From the UHGV virus genome UHGV-1351569: DNA of 64,000 bases; one strand, 5' to 3'. The stretch comes from a virus. Below the pieces are notes generated by a model. That model searched no databases and was not told the origin of the DNA. It worked only from the letters and a program-made list of their open reading frames with translations. Shown here in pieces: positions 17 to 21,836 of the stretch (position 1 is the first letter of the stretch; every line of letters starts with the position of its first letter). A program made the position numbers and the translations under genes.

Positions 17-346
17 ATGATGACAGACACGCAACTTTTCGAATATCTTTATTTTTCGCCAAAAACTATTAAAAATAAATTGGTGAATCATTTTGAAATT
101 TTGGCAAATAACAACGTCTTGAGCGAATTTTATCCTAAGCAATACAAATTACAAAAAGGCGTATTCAAAGGATGCAGAGTTTTGTGTACTGCTCCTAATG
201 CAAGATTAATGAATAAAATTCCATATTTTACCATGGAATTTATTGATGGACCTTTTAAAGGACTAATCACACAGAGTTTAATGGCATATGATTCTGAGCC
301 ATTTTTAATTAAAGAACAATCTTGGATAAATTTATTTTCTAATTGA
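17..346 (+). CDS. hypothetical protein (vs-region small ORF)
   Basis: 109-aa ORF from track; dense same-strand gene packing; no recognisable motif. Confidence 0.5.
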
Positions 347-353
347 GGTTTAT

Positions 354-716
354 ATGAAAGCATATCAAATTCTTGAAGGCACACATAAAGGCACTATTTA
401 TTTTGAAGATGGTATTCAAGCACGAATTATTGTTTCTAAAACCTTTAAAGAGGACTCTTTTGTAGACCCAGAAATTTTCTATGGTTTGCATGCCCGTGAA
501 ATTGAAATTGAGCAACAGCCTACAGTTAAAATTGAAGGTGGTCAACACCTGAACGTTAACGTTCTGCGTCGTGAAACTCTGGAAGATGCAGTTAAGCATC
601 CGGAAAAATATCCACAGCTGACCATCCGTGTATCCGGTTATGCAGTTCGCTTTAACTCTCTGACTCCGGAACAGCAGCGCGACGTTATCGCTCGTACCTT
701 CACTGAGAGTTTGTAA
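354..716 (+). CDS. GrcA/YfiD-like autonomous glycyl radical cofactor (T4 Y06I-like)
   Basis: C-terminal [24 protein letters not shown] matches the glycyl-radical RVSGY motif of PFL/GrcA; RBS gaggtt before ATG. Confidence 0.8.
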
Positions 717-937
717 TGGCAAAGATAATTATTGAAGGTTCTAAAGATGTGCTAAATGCTTTCGCCGAGTGGTTTAGTAATTCAGGCGAACAGCAATTTA
801 ATGAAGCATGGAATATGGGTGATATTGATGGAATTTATCCTACGACAGAAATTTCTGTTCAGGGATATGGCATTCATGAACCTATTCGTTTAGTTGAATA
901 TGATTTAGGTACTGGTGAGGAAGTAAAATATGATTGA
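716..937 (+). CDS. hypothetical protein, 73 aa
   Basis: ORF start overlaps the previous stop (translational coupling). Confidence 0.5.
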   Translation: MAKIIIEGSKDVLNAFAEWFSNSGEQQFNEAWNMGDIDGIYPTTEISVQGYGIHEPIRLVEYDLGTGEEVKYD

Positions 938-1196
938 AGATATTAAGGGTTATAAGCCACATACTGAAGAGAAAATCGGTAAAGTGAATGCTATCAAAGA
1001 TGCTGAAGTTCGTTTAGGACTTATCTTTGACGCTTTATATGATGAATTTTGGGAAGCACTAGATAATTGCGAAGACTGTGAACTCGCGAAGAATTATGCC
1101 GAAAGCCTTGATCAGTTAACTATTGCTAAAACGAAACTCAAAGAAGCCAGTATGTGGGCTTGCCGTGCAGTGTTCCAACCAGAGGAAAAATACTAA
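930..1196 (+). CDS. hypothetical protein, 88 aa (vs-cluster)
   Basis: ORF from track, overlapping-stop coupling. Confidence 0.5.
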
Positions 1197-1476: not shown

Positions 1477-1506
1477 GTTTACTTTTCCTCTTGACTGTGG
1501 TATAAT
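1477..1506 (+). promoter_or_regulatory. T4-type early (sigma70) promoter upstream of regB
   Basis: GTTTAC at 1477-1482, 18-bp spacer, TGgTATAAT extended -10 at 1501-1506. Confidence 0.6.
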
Positions 1507-2548: not shown

Positions 2549-2888
2549 AATTTTGGTTTTATGTATAGGATTAATTTCATTTTCTGCTTCTGCGTCAGCA
2601 GATACATCATATACTGAAATTAGAGAATATGTAAACCGCACTGCGGCAGATTATTGTGGGAAAAATAAAGCATGCCAAGCTGAATTTGCACAGAAATTAA
2701 TATATGCATATAAAGACGGAGAAAGAGATAAATCAAGCAGATACAAAAACGATACATTATTAAAACGATATGCTAAAAAGTGGAATACTTTAGAATGTTC
2801 AGTTGCGGAGGAGAAAGATAAAGCCGCTTGTCATTCAATGGTTGACCGTTTGGTAGATTCTTATAATCGAGGATTGAGTACTAGATGA
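2541..2888 (+). CDS. small exported protein (T4 vs position)
   Basis: 115 aa; N-terminal signal-like segment LVLCIGLISFSASASA; overlapping start/stop. Confidence 0.55.
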   Translation: MTKILVLCIGLISFSASASADTSYTEIREYVNRTAADYCGKNKACQAEFAQKLIYAYKDGERDKSSRYKNDTLLKRYAKKWNTLECSVAEEKDKAACHSMVDRLVDSYNRGLSTR

Positions 2889-3364
2889 TTGTAAAATATA
2901 TCAAGGGCGATATTGTCGCCCTATTTCTTCAAGGTAATATTATTGCGCACGGGTGTAACTGTTTTCATACAATGGGCAGTGGTGTAGCTGGTCAATTAGC
3001 AAGAGCCTATCCCAAAATTTTAGAAATAGATAAGACCACAACTGAATATGGTTCGCGTGAAAAACTCGGTGATATGTCTATTGTTTTTAAACATAAACCT
3101 AATGGTTTTGGCATATGTTATAACTTGTATACGCAATACGAACCAGGTCCTAATCTTGATTATGGTGCTTTAGTAAACTGCATGATAGAATTAAATCTAC
3201 AGGCAGAAACCCTTTTGTTTAAACCAGTAATTTACATTCCACGCATAGGTTGTGGTATTGCTGGCGGTGATTGGGATAAGGTTTCTAAATTAATCGACAT
3301 GTTTACTCCTGATATTGATTTAATAGTGGTGGATTATGAAAGTACATTACCCACATCCGTTTGA
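2885..3364 (+). CDS. macro-domain-like protein (putative ADP-ribose binding/processing)
   Basis: N-terminal GDIVALF...GNIIAHGCNCF...MGSGVAGQLARAYP resembles the macro-domain GDIT...NAAN...GGGV signature. Confidence 0.55.
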   Translation: MIVKYIKGDIVALFLQGNIIAHGCNCFHTMGSGVAGQLARAYPKILEIDKTTTEYGSREKLGDMSIVFKHKPNGFGICYNLYTQYEPGPNLDYGALVNCMIELNLQAETLLFKPVIYIPRIGCGIAGGDWDKVSKLIDMFTPDIDLIVVDYESTLPTSV

Positions 3365-18036: not shown

Positions 18037-18510
18037 ATGTTATTGACTGGCAAATTATATAAAGAAGAAAAACAGAAATTTTATGATGCGCAAAACGGTA
18101 AATGCTTAATTTGCCAACGAGAACTAAATCCTGATGTTCAAGCTAATCACCTTGACCATGACCATGAATTAAATGGACCAAAAGCAGGAAAGGTACGTGG
18201 ATTGCTCTGTAATCTCTGTAATGCTGCAGAAGGTCAAATGAAGCATAAATTCAATCGTTCTGGCTTAAAGGGACAAGGTGTTGATTATCTTGAATGGCTA
18301 GAAAATTTACTTACTTATTTAAAATCCGATTACACCCAAAATAATATTCACCCTAACTTCGTTGGAGATAAATCAAAGGAATTTTCTCGTTTAGGAAAAG
18401 AGGAAATGATGGCTGAGATGCTTCAAAGAGGATTTGAATATAATGAATCTGACACTAAAACACAATTAATAGCTTCATTTAAGAAGCAGCTTAGAAAGAG
18501 TTTAAAATGA
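18037..18510 (+). CDS. 49: endonuclease VII (Holliday-junction resolvase)
   Basis: 157 aa; CxxC...HLDHDH...CNLCN zinc/His-Cys box; matches recalled T4 gp49. Confidence 0.92.
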   Translation: MLLTGKLYKEEKQKFYDAQNGKCLICQRELNPDVQANHLDHDHELNGPKAGKVRGLLCNLCNAAEGQMKHKFNRSGLKGQGVDYLEWLENLLTYLKSDYTQNNIHPNFVGDKSKEFSRLGKEEMMAEMLQRGFEYNESDTKTQLIASFKKQLRKSLK

Positions 18511-19044
18511 CAATTGAAAAAGAAATTGAAGGATTGATTCATAAAACTAATAAAGACCTTTTAAACGAGAATGCTAATAAAGATTCTCGTGTTTTTCCAA
18601 CTCAACGGGACCTTATGGCTGGTATTGTGTCTAAACACATTGCCAAAAATATGGTCCCGTCTTTTATTATGAAAGCGCATGAAAGCGGAATTATCCATTT
18701 CCATGATATTGATTATTCCCCTGCTCTTCCATTTACTAATTGCTGTTTAGTAGATTTAAAAGGAATGCTTGAAAACGGATTTAAGCTCGGTAATGCACAG
18801 ATTGAAACTCCTAAATCAATCGGCGTTGCTACTGCAATTATGGCACAAATTACTGCACAGGTTGCTTCCCACCAATATGGCGGAACGACTTTTGCGAATG
18901 TAGATAAAGTACTTTCTCCTTATGTTAAACGCACCTATGCAAAACATATTGAGGATGCAGAAAAATGGCAAATCGCTGATGCGTTGAATTATGCTCAATC
19001 CAAAACAGAAAAAGATGTCTATGATGCATTCCAGGCGTATGAGT
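18507..19044 (+). CDS. nrdD: anaerobic ribonucleotide reductase NrdD, exon 1
   Basis: Exon ends after gagT where P1 pairing augagu/gcucau with intron IGS is visible. Confidence 0.85.
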
Positions 19045-19254
19045 TAATTTAATTCAGGCTCATGTAAAACCGGTCTAAACGGGGAACCTCTCTAGTAGAC
19101 AATCCCGTGCTAAATGTTCTTTTGAACTAAATGCCTAACGACTAACCGTGATGAATGTAGCGGTGTAGAATAGAAGCTAATGCTATTCGAAACGGCCGGC
19201 ATCGAAAGATGAAGATATAGTCTAATCTGCATGGCGACATGCAGCAGTCATCTT

Positions 19255-19262
19255 GTATAAAT
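19255..19262 (+). promoter_or_regulatory. T4 late promoter core (TATAAATA) inside intron, upstream of endonuclease ORF
   Basis: Exact TATAAATA 30 nt upstream of the ORF ATG. Confidence 0.55.
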
Positions 19263-19292
19263 AAGATTATCTTATGAATACGAGGTGAAACA

Positions 19293-20063
19293 ATGAAATG
19301 GATAAAAAGACGTTGTACTAAAATAAAAGATAAAGACGCATTTACATACTTAGTTAAGTTTTCTAATGGCGACATTTATATCGGTTATAAAAAAGTTAGA
19401 ACAATTAAAAACAAGCCCACAAACTGGAAAACTTACACAACGTCATCTAAGTATATAAATGAACGCTTAAAAACTGATACACCTACTAAATGGATAATTT
19501 TAAAAACATTTGATAGTTATAAAGACGCATTAAAACATGAAGAAGAGGTCATACGTAAATATTTTTATAGCAAAAAATGTTTAAATAAATCCATAGGCGG
19601 TAAAAAGTTTTATAAGCATCCGGATACTGAAGAACATATTCAAAAATTAAGAGATGCTCATAAGGGTAAAGTGTTATCCGAATCTCATAAAAACAATATA
19701 AAATCTTCTGTAGCTGAATATTATGCTAAAAACGGAAGATCTAAGGAACATGTGCAAAATAATATCAATAGTCGAAAAAGTAAAAAACAAGTATCGATAA
19801 AGCTTAAAAATAAAACTTTTAGAAGTTTTAAAAAAGCGGCGGAATATTTAAATTGCACTGAAAGTGAAGTCGAAACTCATCCTCTTGTTTTGAGTATTAA
19901 GACTACTATTCATAAAGTTCCTGAATATGTGGTTGTTGACGGTATTAAGTATACGTCTTATATAGAAGCAGCTAAAGCGCTAAATTTTCATCCTAGCACT
20001 ATAAAAGAACGTTGCGTATCTATGGACTATCCAAATTTTGTTGTTTCATATAAACGGGCATGA
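19293..20063 (+). CDS. intron-encoded homing endonuclease (I-TevII-like)
   Basis: 256 aa ORF wholly inside the intron; size and position match T4 I-TevII. Confidence 0.8.
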   Translation: MKWIKRRCTKIKDKDAFTYLVKFSNGDIYIGYKKVRTIKNKPTNWKTYTTSSKYINERLKTDTPTKWIILKTFDSYKDALKHEEEVIRKYFYSKKCLNKSIGGKKFYKHPDTEEHIQKLRDAHKGKVLSESHKNNIKSSVAEYYAKNGRSKEHVQNNINSRKSKKQVSIKLKNKTFRSFKKAAEYLNCTESEVETHPLVLSIKTTIHKVPEYVVVDGIKYTSYIEAAKALNFHPSTIKERCVSMDYPNFVVSYKRA

Positions 20064-20077
20064 ATTTGCGACTCATG

Positions 20078-21369
20078 CCGAATATAATGATGAAGTAAAT
20101 ACACTTTTCAGCTCTAATGGACAAACGCCTTTTGTAACAATTACGTTTGGTACGGGAACTGACTGGACTGAACGAATGATTCAGAAAGCAATTCTGAAAA
20201 ATCGTATTAAAGGTCTTGGTCGCGATGGGATAACTCCTATTTTCCCTAAGCTTGTTATGTTCGTTGAAGAAGGTGTTAATCTTTATAAAGATGACCCGAA
20301 CTATGATATTAAACAGCTTGCTCTAGAGTGCGCAAGCAAAAGAATGTATCCTGACATCATTTCGGCTAAGAACAATAAAGCTATCACCGGTTCATCTATT
20401 CCTGTTTCTCCAATGGGTTGCCGCAGTTTCTTGAGCGTATGGAAAGATTCGACTGGTAATGAAATTCTTGATGGACGTAATAATCTTGGCGTTGTAACAC
20501 TGAATCTTCCTCGCATCGCGTTAGATTCTTATATTGGAACACAGTTCAATGAACAGAAATTTGCCGAATTGTTCAATGAACGAATGGATTTATGTTTTGA
20601 AGCTTTGATGTGTAGAATTAGTTCCTTAAAAGGAGTTAAAGCGACTGTTGCTCCTATTCTTTATCAAGAAGGTGCATTCGGGGTTCGTCTTAAACCAGAT
20701 GACGACATAATTGAGTTATTTAAAAACGGTAGAAGTTCAGTGTCTTTGGGATACATTGGTATTCACGAATTGAATATTCTTGTCGGTCGTGATATTGGGC
20801 AGGAAATTTTGACTAAAATGAATGCTCATCTTAAGCAGTGGACTGAAAGAACCGGTTTTGCTTTTAGTTTGTATTCTACACCTGCTGAAAACCTGTGCTA
20901 TCGCTTCTGTAAACTTGATACCGAAAAATATGGAAGTGTAAAGGATGTTACTGATAAAGGCTGGTACACTAACAGTTTCCATGTTTCAGTAGAAGAAAAT
21001 ATCACTCCGTTTGAAAAGATTTCTCGTGAAGCGCCATATCATTTCATTGCGACAGGTGGTCACATTTCTTATGTTGAACTTCCTGATATGAAAAATAACT
21101 TAAAAGGTCTTGAGGCTGTATGGGATTATGCTGCACAACATTTAGATTATTTTGGCGTTAACATGCCAGTAGATAAATGTTTTACGTGTGGAAGTACCCA
21201 TGAAATGACTCCTACTGAAAACGGGTTTGTTTGTTCTATTTGTGGAGAAACTGATCCTAAAAAGATGAACACAATAAGAAGAACTTGTGGTTATTTGGGA
21301 AATCCGAACGAACGTGGATTTAATCTTGGCAAAAATAAAGAAATCATGCATAGGGTTAAACACCAATGA
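20078..21369 (+). CDS. nrdD: anaerobic ribonucleotide reductase NrdD, exon 2
   Basis: In-frame continuation; C-terminal RRTCGYLG glycyl-radical motif; joined product about 609 aa. Confidence 0.85.
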
Positions 21370-21836
21370 ATTATGATAGATTTTATCCTTGCGATTTTGT
21401 GAATGGCCCTGGATGCAGGGTCGTTCTTTTCGTTACAGGTTGTTTGCATAAATGTGAAGGGTGTTATAATAAATCAACATGGAATGCTAGAAATGGCGTT
21501 CCATTCACTGGTGAAACACTAGAACAATTAATTGAATGTTTGAATAATGATTATATAGAAGGATTAACTATAACTGGAGGTGACCCTCTTTATCCTGATA
21601 ACCGAGATGTTATTCATTGCATTGTTCAAACAGTAAAAAATCTTTATCCGAATAAAAGCATTTGGTTGTGGACCGGATATAAGTTTGAGGATATTAAACA
21701 ACTAGAAATGCTTAAATATGTTGATGTTATTATTGATGGGAAGTATGAGAAAAATCTTCCGACCAAAAAGCTGTGGCGAGGATCAGATAATCAGCGACTT
21801 TGGTCAAATACCGATGGGGTGTGGAAACATGATTAA
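21366..21836 (+). CDS. nrdG: anaerobic RNR activating enzyme (radical SAM)
   Basis: 156 aa; Cys cluster CRVVLFVTGCLHKCEGC; ATGA overlap with nrdD. Confidence 0.88.
   Translation: MNYDRFYPCDFVNGPGCRVVLFVTGCLHKCEGCYNKSTWNARNGVPFTGETLEQLIECLNNDYIEGLTITGGDPLYPDNRDVIHCIVQTVKNLYPNKSIWLWTGYKFEDIKQLEMLKYVDVIIDGKYEKNLPTKKLWRGSDNQRLWSNTDGVWKHD

What the first reader, a model, noticed from the sequence alone, without database searches (positions are those of the whole stretch)
354..716. GrcA-like glycyl-radical spare-part protein in the same genome as glycyl-radical NrdD
The 120-aa protein carries the RVSGY glycyl-radical motif of the PFL C-terminus and GrcA/YfiD. The phage anaerobic RNR NrdD (18507-21369) is itself an oxygen-sensitive glycyl-radical enzyme with an RxCGY motif. 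Whether the small protein rescues host PFL, phage NrdD, or something else is unresolved.
Basis: partly seen in the sequence, partly recalled or inferred. Interest (0 to 1): 0.45.

Follow-up and report, generated by a model that had tools for sequence, protein, structure and literature searches.

The report
Known T4 spare-part glycyl-radical protein
This is the T4-type phage gene vs.6 (Y06I/GrcA), a small protein reported in 2001 to be radical-activated by the host's pyruvate formate-lyase activase and to repair oxygen-cut host pyruvate formate-lyase, so the finding is real but already explained.

Summary
Window 354-716 (+) is a 120-aa ORF with a GAGG ribosome-binding site and an RVSGY glycyl-radical motif (Pfam Gly_radical E=2.5e-18). 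The same genome carries an intron-split nrdD and nrdG.

The gene is not new. It is the ortholog of phage T4 vs.6 (UniProt P13316, GRCA_BPT4, formerly Y06I), 98.3% identical. An identical protein is annotated "autonomous glycyl radical cofactor" in many T4-like phages. Wagner et al. 2001 (cited in PMC8683613) reported that PFL activase puts a glycyl radical on T4 Y06I, which then restores activity to oxygen-cleaved host PFL.

Rescue of NrdD has not been reported. It is unlikely: residues 59-120 are identical to E. coli GrcA and 78% identical to the PflB C-terminus. They resemble the NrdD radical domain no better than shuffled sequence, and the protein has no cysteine for a zinc ribbon.

Two additions:
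- Gene nt 179-353 is a host-derived patch, with 2 of 175 mismatches to E. coli grcA, joined to an AT-rich phage-type N-terminal half.
- In ~350-kb jumbo phages the homolog lies between nrdD and nrdG. This hints at a link through formate, the reductant of class III RNR.

Already known; low interest.

The parts
345..348 (+). Shine-Dalgarno-like GAGG, 5 nt upstream of the ATG; overlaps the stop codon of vs.7 (ORF 17-346)
   Evidence: Read directly from the sequence
354..716 (+). vs.6 / phage grcA coding sequence: 120 aa plus TAA, the autonomous glycyl radical cofactor of T4-like phages
   Evidence: Pfam Gly_radical 2.5e-18. 98.3% aa identity to T4 vs.6. Exact sequence is in a cluster named 'autonomous glycyl radical cofactor', together with P13316 GRCA_BPT4. 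PDB 6OWR 9e-42.
354..531 (+). Phage-type N-terminal half (aa 1-59), AT-rich. It is only distantly related to the N-terminal half of bacterial GrcA, but conserved among the T4-like and jumbo phages aligned and only weakly in the T5-like one (MKAYQIL.G.HKGTI...[11 protein letters not shown]).
   Evidence: GC 0.33 and third-position GC 0.20. No DNA match to E. coli grcA. Protein alignment A3.
532..706 (+). Host-derived tract (gene nt 179-353), nearly identical in DNA to E. coli grcA nt 200-374. It encodes the glycyl-radical domain.
   Evidence: 2 mismatches of 175 in the window; 0 of 175 in phages Aplg8 and RPN187. 97.3% over 185 nt to grcA in 5426 of 5426 E. coli genomes. GC rises to about 0.50. 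Third-position GC 0.43 against 0.20 in the 5' half.
627..641 (+). RVSGY glycyl-radical motif; radical glycine G95 = codon 636-638, equivalent to G102 of E. coli GrcA and G734 of PflB
   Evidence: Residue numbering of GrcA and PflB from PMC12338860.
18507..21369 (+). Context, not part of the gene: nrdD (class III RNR) split by a group I intron (about 19044-20091) that carries a GIY-YIG endonuclease ORF (19293-20063). RRTCGYLG glycyl site is near the end.
   Evidence: Splice sites were not mapped exactly.
21366..21836 (+). Context: nrdG, the radical-SAM activase of NrdD
   Evidence: TIGR02491 6.1e-59; Pfam Fer4_12 / Radical_SAM

Best explanation
The ORF is the phage version of the 'spare part' protein GrcA/YfiD (T4 gene vs.6, old name Y06I).

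Mechanism reported for the T4 ortholog and for E. coli GrcA, not tested here:
- The host radical-SAM activase PflA (PFL-AE) abstracts a hydrogen from the glycine of the RVSGY loop (G95 here), giving a stable glycyl radical.
- The small protein docks onto host pyruvate formate-lyase whose own C-terminal radical domain has been cut off by oxygen at G734.
- It takes the place of that domain and passes the radical to Cys419, so pyruvate + CoA -> acetyl-CoA + formate runs again.

Inferred from the sequence here: the radical domain (aa 59-120) is identical to E. coli GrcA, so it should fit E. coli PflA and PflB exactly. The N-terminal half is a phage-specific variant of the region that, in YfiD, promotes radical installation.

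Inferred physiological role: a phage infecting a facultative anaerobe in a low, fluctuating oxygen setting keeps host fermentation working. That supplies acetyl-CoA, ATP, and formate, which is the reductant used by class III ribonucleotide reductases such as the phage's own NrdD.
For: Identity of the gene:
- 98.3% identical to T4 vs.6, in the same vs.7-vs.6-vs.5-vs.4-vs.3-regB-vs.1 order.
- Its protein cluster includes P13316 GRCA_BPT4.

Domain:
- Pfam Gly_radical 2.5e-18.
- Best solved structure is E. coli YfiD 6OWR at 9e-42, then the PflB C-terminus at 5e-26.
- Residues 59-120 are identical to E. coli GrcA.
- 49 of 63 residues are identical to PflB 697-759.

Published function:
- PFL-AE installs the radical on YfiD/Y06I, and the activated protein complexes with O2-cleaved PFL and restores activity (PMC8683613, citing Wagner 2001).
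- The N-terminal region aids radical installation (PMC13450708).
- GrcA G102 passes the radical to PflB C419 in vivo (PMC12338860).

Selection:
- Homologs occur in 1592 phage records: T4-like, T5-like, jumbo and Vibrio phages.
- In jumbo phage 7t3 the domain keeps 89% aa identity to E. coli GrcA at only 70% DNA identity and third-position GC of 0.08. That pattern means purifying selection in a long-resident phage gene.
- Klebsiella phages carry the TLLDAVEH state found in the Klebsiella and Salmonella GrcA rows of the alignment. Coliphages carry the E. coli TLEDAVKH state.

Formate link: formate is the reductant of class III RNRs (PMC4493059).
Against: - No experiment on this exact protein. 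The biochemistry is on the T4 ortholog (2 residues different) and was taken from secondary citations, because the 2001 paper is not held.
- No in vivo phenotype for vs.6 turned up in the searchable literature.
- The protein scores 154.9 bits against the NCBIfam GrcA equivalog TIGR04365, below its cutoff of 170, because of the divergent N-terminal half.
- The physiological role and the formate-to-NrdD link are inference only.
Confidence: 0.85

Rival explanations
1. Spare part for the phage's own NrdD: NrdG puts the radical on Vs.6, which then replaces the oxygen-cleaved C-terminal glycyl loop of the anaerobic ribonucleotide reductase.
For: - nrdD and nrdG are in the same genome.
- NrdD exon 2 also matches Pfam Gly_radical (9.9e-26), so the two domains are related at profile level.
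- In ~350-kb jumbo phages (7t3, Munch, SE_PL, K64-1, RaK2, Serratia BF, Erwinia pEa_SNUABM) the homolog lies between nrdD and nrdG.
- Reviews state that spare parts for other glycyl radical enzymes remain an open possibility.
- Nolan et al. 2006 speculated on a role for vs.6 in nucleotide metabolism.
Against: - The domain is 100% identical to E. coli GrcA and 78% to PflB. Its alignment to the NrdD radical domain scores no better than shuffles (281 of 500 shuffles reach the score; BLASTP E=4.1).
- NrdD's glycine loop is preceded by a CxxC...CxxC stretch (the Zn-binding domain of T4 NrdD). Vs.6 has no cysteine at all.
- The motif is RVSGY, not RTCGY.
- In coliphages the domain is repeatedly or recently replaced by the host's grcA sequence. 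That fits a host partner, not a co-evolving phage partner.
- In this window the gene is about 18 kb from nrdD.
Confidence: 0.05
2. It still repairs host PFL but is charged by the phage activase NrdG instead of, or as well as, host PflA. This would make the phage independent of the host activase.
For: - Conserved nrdD-grcA-like-nrdG neighbourhood in jumbo phages, with the grcA-like stop overlapping the nrdG start in 7t3.
- NrdG shows weak profile similarity to PflA (TIGR02493, 8e-14).
Against: - PFL-AE is reported to suffice for Y06I activation.
- No data on NrdG acting on an RVSGY substrate were found.
- The gene is not adjacent to nrdG in T4-like or T5-like phages.
Confidence: 0.07
3. It has no repair function: either a passively captured piece of host DNA, or a decoy that titrates host PflA or blocks PFL as part of host shut-off.
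For: The 3' 175 nt are essentially E. coli DNA, showing that host DNA was captured.
Against: - The reading frame is intact, with a phage-type N-terminal half conserved across distant phage lineages.
- Homologs occur in 1592 phage records.
- There is strong purifying selection where no recent host patch exists (7t3).
- Reconstitution of PFL activity by the T4 protein is reported.
Confidence: 0.03

Closest known systems
Phage T4 Vs.6 (UniProt P13316, GRCA_BPT4; called Y06I in Wagner et al. 2001)
   Same: 120 aa, 98.3% identical. Same neighbours (vs.7 upstream; vs.5, vs.4/Acb2, vs.3, regB, vs.1 downstream). Same mosaic of phage-type 5' half and E. coli-like 3' tract.
   Different: Two residues differ: Q54 versus P, and R73 versus H. 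At position 73 the window protein has the E. coli GrcA residue, so its radical domain matches E. coli GrcA perfectly. The downstream vs.5 ORF is 73 aa here against 58 aa in T4.
E. coli GrcA / YfiD (PDB 6OWR; NCBIfam TIGR04365)
   Same: Stand-alone ~14 kDa protein with a C-terminal glycyl-radical domain. Residues 59-120 are identical to GrcA 66-127. DNA is 97.3% identical over the last 185 nt. Weak but colinear similarity in the N-terminal half (AR.IV.K..F.ED).
   Different: The N-terminal half is strongly diverged (no DNA match), 7 residues shorter, AT-rich, and conserved as a phage-specific variant. The whole protein scores 154.9 bits, below the TIGR04365 cutoff of 170.
C-terminal glycyl-radical domain of pyruvate formate-lyase PflB (PDB 1H16, residues 697-759)
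   Same: 49 of 63 residues identical, including [13 protein letters not shown] around the radical glycine. This is the part of PflB that the spare part is reported to replace.
   Different: No catalytic barrel; the protein is only the radical domain plus a short N-terminal extension.
Glycyl-radical domain of class III ribonucleotide reductase NrdD (this window, exon 2)
   Same: Both match Pfam Gly_radical. Both have an R-x-x-G-Y loop.
   Different: No significant pairwise similarity. NrdD has a cysteine-rich Zn-binding insertion before the glycine loop, and Vs.6 has no cysteine. RTCGY versus RVSGY.

Membership tests
Phage Vs.6 / GRCA_BPT4-type autonomous glycyl radical cofactor | Orthology to T4 vs.6: high identity over the full length and conserved position between vs.7 and vs.5/vs.4 | tested here: met
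   98.3% aa identity over 120 of 120 residues to AF158101.6 vs.6. Same gene order. Same 90% protein cluster as P13316.
Phage Vs.6 / GRCA_BPT4-type autonomous glycyl radical cofactor | Small stand-alone protein whose C-terminus is a PFL-type glycyl-radical domain with an RVSGY loop | tested here: met
   120 aa. Pfam Gly_radical 2.5e-18 at aa 60-101. RVSGY at aa 92-96.
Phage Vs.6 / GRCA_BPT4-type autonomous glycyl radical cofactor | Glycyl radical installed by PFL activase (PflA) | not testable with these tools
   Reported for T4 Y06I and E. coli YfiD (Wagner 2001 via PMC8683613). Not tested for this sequence.
Phage Vs.6 / GRCA_BPT4-type autonomous glycyl radical cofactor | Restores activity to oxygen-cleaved PFL | not testable with these tools
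   Reported for T4 Y06I and YfiD. Here only inferred from identity of the radical domain to E. coli GrcA.
Bacterial GrcA equivalog (NCBIfam TIGR04365 spare_glycyl) | Whole-protein score at or above the curated cutoff (170 bits) | tested here: not met
   154.9 bits, E=1.2e-45, matching aa 20-120 only. The shortfall comes from the divergent N-terminal half. I therefore file it as the phage Vs.6 type that works like GrcA, not as a strict bacterial GrcA equivalog.
Pfam PF01228 Gly_radical | Score above the gathering threshold (22.2 bits) | tested here: met
   67 bits
NrdD-type glycyl-radical domain (hypothetical NrdD spare part) | Cysteine-rich Zn-binding element preceding the glycine loop, and an R-x-C-G-Y loop | tested here: not met
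   Vs.6 has 0 Cys and RVSGY. The NrdD region has 5 Cys including CFTCG...CSICG and RRTCGY. The pairwise alignment is no better than shuffles.

The most novel reading that the evidence does not exclude
The phage spare part is functionally tied to the phage's anaerobic ribonucleotide reductase, but not by repairing it. By keeping host PFL alive it secures formate, the reductant NrdD consumes. That would explain why the homolog sits between nrdD and nrdG in jumbo phages and why the grcA-carrying lineages sampled here (T4-like, T5-like, jumbo) also carry nrdD. In coliphages the radical domain is kept matched to the host enzyme by recent or recurrent recombination with the host's own grcA.
Probability: 0.3. 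Interest if true: 0.4.

Novelty: already known. Interest (0 to 1): 0.15.

Why it matters
As a gene call it adds nothing. [quoted passage not shown]

What remains open is the biology.
- I found no in vivo phenotype for vs.6.
- I found no test of NrdG or NrdD with it.

Two observations made here may merit a short follow-up. They bear on how lytic phages sustain anaerobic host metabolism and dNTP supply in the gut.
- A 175-nt patch of E. coli grcA DNA is embedded in an old phage gene.
- The nrdD-grcA-nrdG arrangement is conserved in jumbo phages.

Tried and rejected
- **Pairwise comparison of Vs.6 with NrdD exon 2.** BLASTP and Smith-Waterman with shuffles gave no signal. I rejected direct NrdD mimicry at the sequence level. 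Pfam does put both in Gly_radical.
- **Primary paper and related texts.** Wagner 2001 (pmid 11444864), the YfiD NMR paper (PMC6754787) and the T4 genome review (PMC150520) are not held. The biochemical claims rest on secondary citations.
- **Literature on vs.6 phenotype, phage grcA as an auxiliary gene, or the host-derived tract**. Only Nolan et al. 2006 turned up (Pfam match, speculation on nucleotide metabolism). Absence from this library does not prove that the tract is undescribed.
- **Promoter and terminator scan of 1-2100**. No promoter-like site lies directly upstream of the gene, and counts are no higher than in shuffles. The gene is probably co-transcribed from upstream of the window.
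- **Variable breakpoints.** Longer BLAST alignments in some phages (RPN187 and others) suggested a different 5' breakpoint, which would have meant independent captures. Inspection shows the same breakpoint at gene nt 179, so that argument was dropped. The case for late or recurrent homogenisation rests instead on the deficit of synonymous differences in the 3' half between Tequatrovirus and Mosigvirus.
- **Klebsiella phage KP182.** Its 3' half has third-position GC of 0.59 and Klebsiella-type residues. K. pneumoniae grcA itself was not among the 80 loci returned, and the best match was only 89.6%. Host tracking in Klebsiella phages is suggestive, not shown.
- **Structure prediction and large protein-database searches.** Not run. 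The domain is identical to a solved structure (6OWR), so they would not change the verdict.

Full report
**1. What is at the coordinates**

Window 354-716 on the + strand is an ATG-to-TAA ORF of 120 codons. GAGG lies 5 nt upstream at 345-348 and overlaps the stop of the preceding ORF (17-346). The TAA shares its last A with the ATG of the next ORF (716). This is the tight packing typical of phage early regions.

The protein ends ...[40 protein letters not shown] is aa 92-96 (window 627-641) and the candidate radical glycine G95 is codon 636-638. The match to known glycyl-radical domains is far beyond chance:
- Pfam Gly_radical, E=2.5e-18.
- E. coli YfiD/GrcA structure 6OWR, E=9e-42.
- PflB residues 697-759, E=5e-26.

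A 127-codon TTG ORF on the opposite strand (339-722) covers the gene. It has no support beyond being open.

**2. The genome and the neighbourhood**

The first 3 kb are 98% identical to many Tequatrovirus (T4-like) phages of Escherichia and Shigella. The window runs opposite to the standard T4 map. The neighbours are the T4 genes:
- vs.7 (17-346)
- vs.5 (716-937)
- vs.4 (930-1196; Pfam Acb2/Tad1 hairpin, 5.5e-20)
- vs.3 (1196-1474)
- regB (1534-1995; REGB_T4, 3.8e-68)
- vs.1 (2003-2548; SLT)
- a Macro-domain protein (2885-3364)

These rest. No promoter-like site lies just upstream of the gene within the window, and no terminator follows it on the + strand. It is presumably co-transcribed with its neighbours.

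**3.

The span 18507-21369 does encode the class III reductase, but it is interrupted.
- The exon-1 ORF (18507-19052) matches the NrdD model up to about aa 179.
- A group I intron follows (Rfam RF00028, 75 bits, 19013-19244), with a GIY-YIG/NUMOD endonuclease ORF at 19293-20063.
- The NrdD match resumes at about 20092 and runs to 21369.

RRTCGYLG lies near the C-terminus, preceded by CFTCG...CSICG. nrdG follows at 21366-21836.

**4. Identity of the small protein**

It is 98.3% identical over its full length to T4 Vs.6 (AF158101.6). The two differences are Q54/P and R73/H.

An exact-sequence look-up places it in one 90% cluster with T4 NP_049730 = UniProt P13316, entry name GRCA_BPT4, "Autonomous glycyl radical cofactor". 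The window's exact sequence is a UniRef100 entry with 34 members and was seen on 167 contigs. GenBank records annotate the gene as "autonomous glycyl radical cofactor" or "pyruvate formate-lyase".

**5. What is already known**

PMC8683613 (J Biol Chem 2021) states that Knappe and co-workers found small spare-part proteins in E. coli and in phage T4 (YfiD in E. coli, Y06I in T4). These restore function to O2-damaged, cleaved PFL. [quoted passage not shown] Only these two spare parts have been validated (primary reference Wagner et al. 2001, BBRC 285:456, pmid 11444864, which I could not read).

Other relevant statements:
- A 2026 review repeats that spare parts are known only for formate lyases. 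[quoted passage not shown]
- In vivo work in E. coli places the radical on GrcA G102, passed to PflB C419.
- Nolan et al. 2006 noted the Gly_radical match of vs.6 in six of six T4-like genomes and guessed at a role in nucleotide metabolism.

That Y06I is the old UniProt name of Vs.6/P13316 is my own knowledge. It is consistent with the current entry name and with the gene lying between regB and denV.

**6. PFL or NrdD?**

The sequence points to host PFL.
- Residues 59-120 are identical to E. coli GrcA 66-127.
- 49 of 63 residues are identical to PflB 697-759.
- Against the NrdD C-terminal region, BLASTP finds nothing (E=4.1). A local alignment scores below the mean of 500 shuffles.
- At profile level both belong to Pfam Gly_radical. 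But NrdD carries a cysteine-rich insertion before the glycine loop, the Zn-binding domain seen in the T4 NrdD structure. Vs.6 has no cysteine.

Direct rescue of NrdD is untested experimentally, and I rate it about 5%.

**7. A mosaic gene with a patch of host DNA**

The last 185 nt match grcA at 97.3% in all 5426 complete E. coli genomes. The first 178 nt give no DNA match. GC rises from about 0.30 to about 0.50 across the gene, and third-position GC rises from 0.20 to 0.43.

Base by base, gene nt 179-353 (window 532-706) differs from E. coli grcA nt 200-374 as follows:
- this window: 2 of 175
- T4: 1 of 175
- RB69: 2 of 175
- Aplg8 (Tequatrovirus): 0 of 175
- RPN187 (Mosigvirus): 0 of 175

For scale, the same tract is 98.9% identical between E. 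coli and a sister Escherichia species, 92% for Citrobacter and 83% for Salmonella. The donor was therefore E. coli itself or a very close relative. The direction was host to phage, because the tract has host composition and sits within the enterobacterial gene tree.

Tequatrovirus and Mosigvirus copies differ at 10-12 synonymous codons in codons 1-59, but at only 0-3 in codons 60-118 (Fisher p = 0.001-0.02). The patch is thus younger than the split of these phage genera, or has been re-homogenised or exchanged since. All copies share the same 5' breakpoint, at the point where the protein becomes conserved. I therefore cannot tell one capture followed by phage-to-phage spread from repeated homology-limited conversion.

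No phage record carries the E. coli-type 5' half (0 records with at least 80% coverage).

**8. The wider phage family**

tblastn finds homologs in 1592 of 50,697 phage records. These include T4-like phages of Escherichia, Klebsiella, Cronobacter, Enterobacter, Providencia and Vibrio, T5-like phages of Salmonella and Escherichia, and ~350-kb jumbo phages.

The N-terminal motif MKAYQIL.G.HKGTI...[11 protein letters not shown] is shared across the T4-like and jumbo phages aligned, and only weakly by the T5-like one. It differs from the bacterial [23 protein letters not shown]...ARC.CAKAG.AED, although the two are colinear. This looks like an old phage gene family.

In jumbo phage 7t3 both halves have phage composition (third-position GC 0.08-0.10). 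Yet the domain keeps 89% aa identity to E. coli GrcA at 70% DNA identity, which indicates purifying selection without recent host input.

Klebsiella phages KP182 and Miro have TLLDAVEH, the state found in the Klebsiella and Salmonella GrcA rows. Coliphages have the E. coli state TLEDAVKH. KP182's 3' half has third-position GC of 0.59 against 0.23 in its 5' half. This suggests host tracking, but K. pneumoniae grcA itself was not available for comparison.

**9. A context clue for a link to anaerobic dNTP synthesis**

In Salmonella phage 7t3 the homolog lies between nrdD and nrdG and overlaps the nrdG start. The same nrdD - PFL-like - (DUF4326) - nrdG neighbourhood is annotated in Munch, SE_PL, PHA46, fENko-Kae01, K64-1, Muenster, Escherichia phages A4/ph0011/UE-S1, Serratia BF and Erwinia pEa_SNUABM phages. 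Twenty-three records cover at least 80% of the query. T5-like phages carry both genes at separate sites.

Formate is the reductant of class III RNRs (Mulliez et al. 1995, cited in PMC4493059), and PFL is the cell's formate source. The simplest reading is therefore co-selection of two anaerobic functions: spare part -> PFL -> formate -> NrdD. This is inference. It would also fit NrdG charging the spare part.

**10. Verdict**

The gene is an already known, biochemically characterised phage protein, so novelty is "already known" and interest is low.

The host-DNA patch and the jumbo-phage synteny are minor additions. I could not find them described in the searchable literature, which is not proof that they are new.

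Noticed in passing
L087:1-2324 (Salmonella phage 7t3, MK773491.1); also hits H77-H98: In ~350-kb jumbo phages the GrcA-like gene lies between nrdD and nrdG, sometimes with a DUF4326 gene. In 7t3 its stop overlaps the nrdG start. The arrangement is conserved across Salmonella, Klebsiella, Escherichia, Serratia and Erwinia jumbo phages.
   Followed up: partly
window 532-706: A 175-nt tract inside the phage gene is almost pure E. coli grcA DNA (2 mismatches here, 0 in phages Aplg8 and RPN187). The adjacent 5' half is AT-rich phage sequence. Synonymous divergence between phage genera is much lower in the tract than beside it.
   Followed up: yes
window 930-1196 (+): vs.4 ortholog with a strong Pfam Acb2/Tad1 hairpin match (5.5e-20), two genes downstream of vs.6. 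By my own recollection this family comprises phage sponges for cyclic-nucleotide immune signals.
   Followed up: no
window 19013-20091: Group I intron in nrdD (Rfam 75 bits) carrying a 256-aa GIY-YIG/NUMOD homing-endonuclease ORF (19293-20063). Exact splice sites were not mapped.
   Followed up: partly
window 716-937 versus L002:1863-2039 and L093:585-799: The small gene after vs.6 (vs.5) varies. It is 73 aa here and overlaps vs.4. It is 58 aa in T4. Phage Aplg8 has no annotated CDS in that gap.
   Followed up: no
L089:301-702 (Providencia phage PSTRCR_127) and L090:1501-1869 (T5-like VSe12): Their radical domains carry PflB-like rather than GrcA-like residues (VMNREMLL.AME.P.KY, SLTKEQQ, RTFTQ.M). 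This hints that different phage lineages drew on different host donors (pflB or tdcE versus grcA), or that their hosts' GrcA differ. In VSe12 the gene sits next to a tRNA cluster.
   Followed up: no
window 339-722 (-): A 127-codon TTG-initiated ORF runs antisense across the whole vs.6 gene. No homology or signal supports it; it is probably a by-product of codon usage.
   Followed up: no
window 1478-1506 (+): Best sigma-70-like site of the region (TTTACT-17-TATAAT with an upstream TG) lies just before regB. No comparable site precedes vs.6.
   Followed up: no
window 2885-3364 (+): Macro-domain protein (Pfam 2.4e-08) downstream of the valyl-tRNA synthetase modifier gene. By position it may correspond to T4 tk.4, an assignment from memory; Nolan et al. 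2006 report an A1pp match for tk.4.
   Followed up: no
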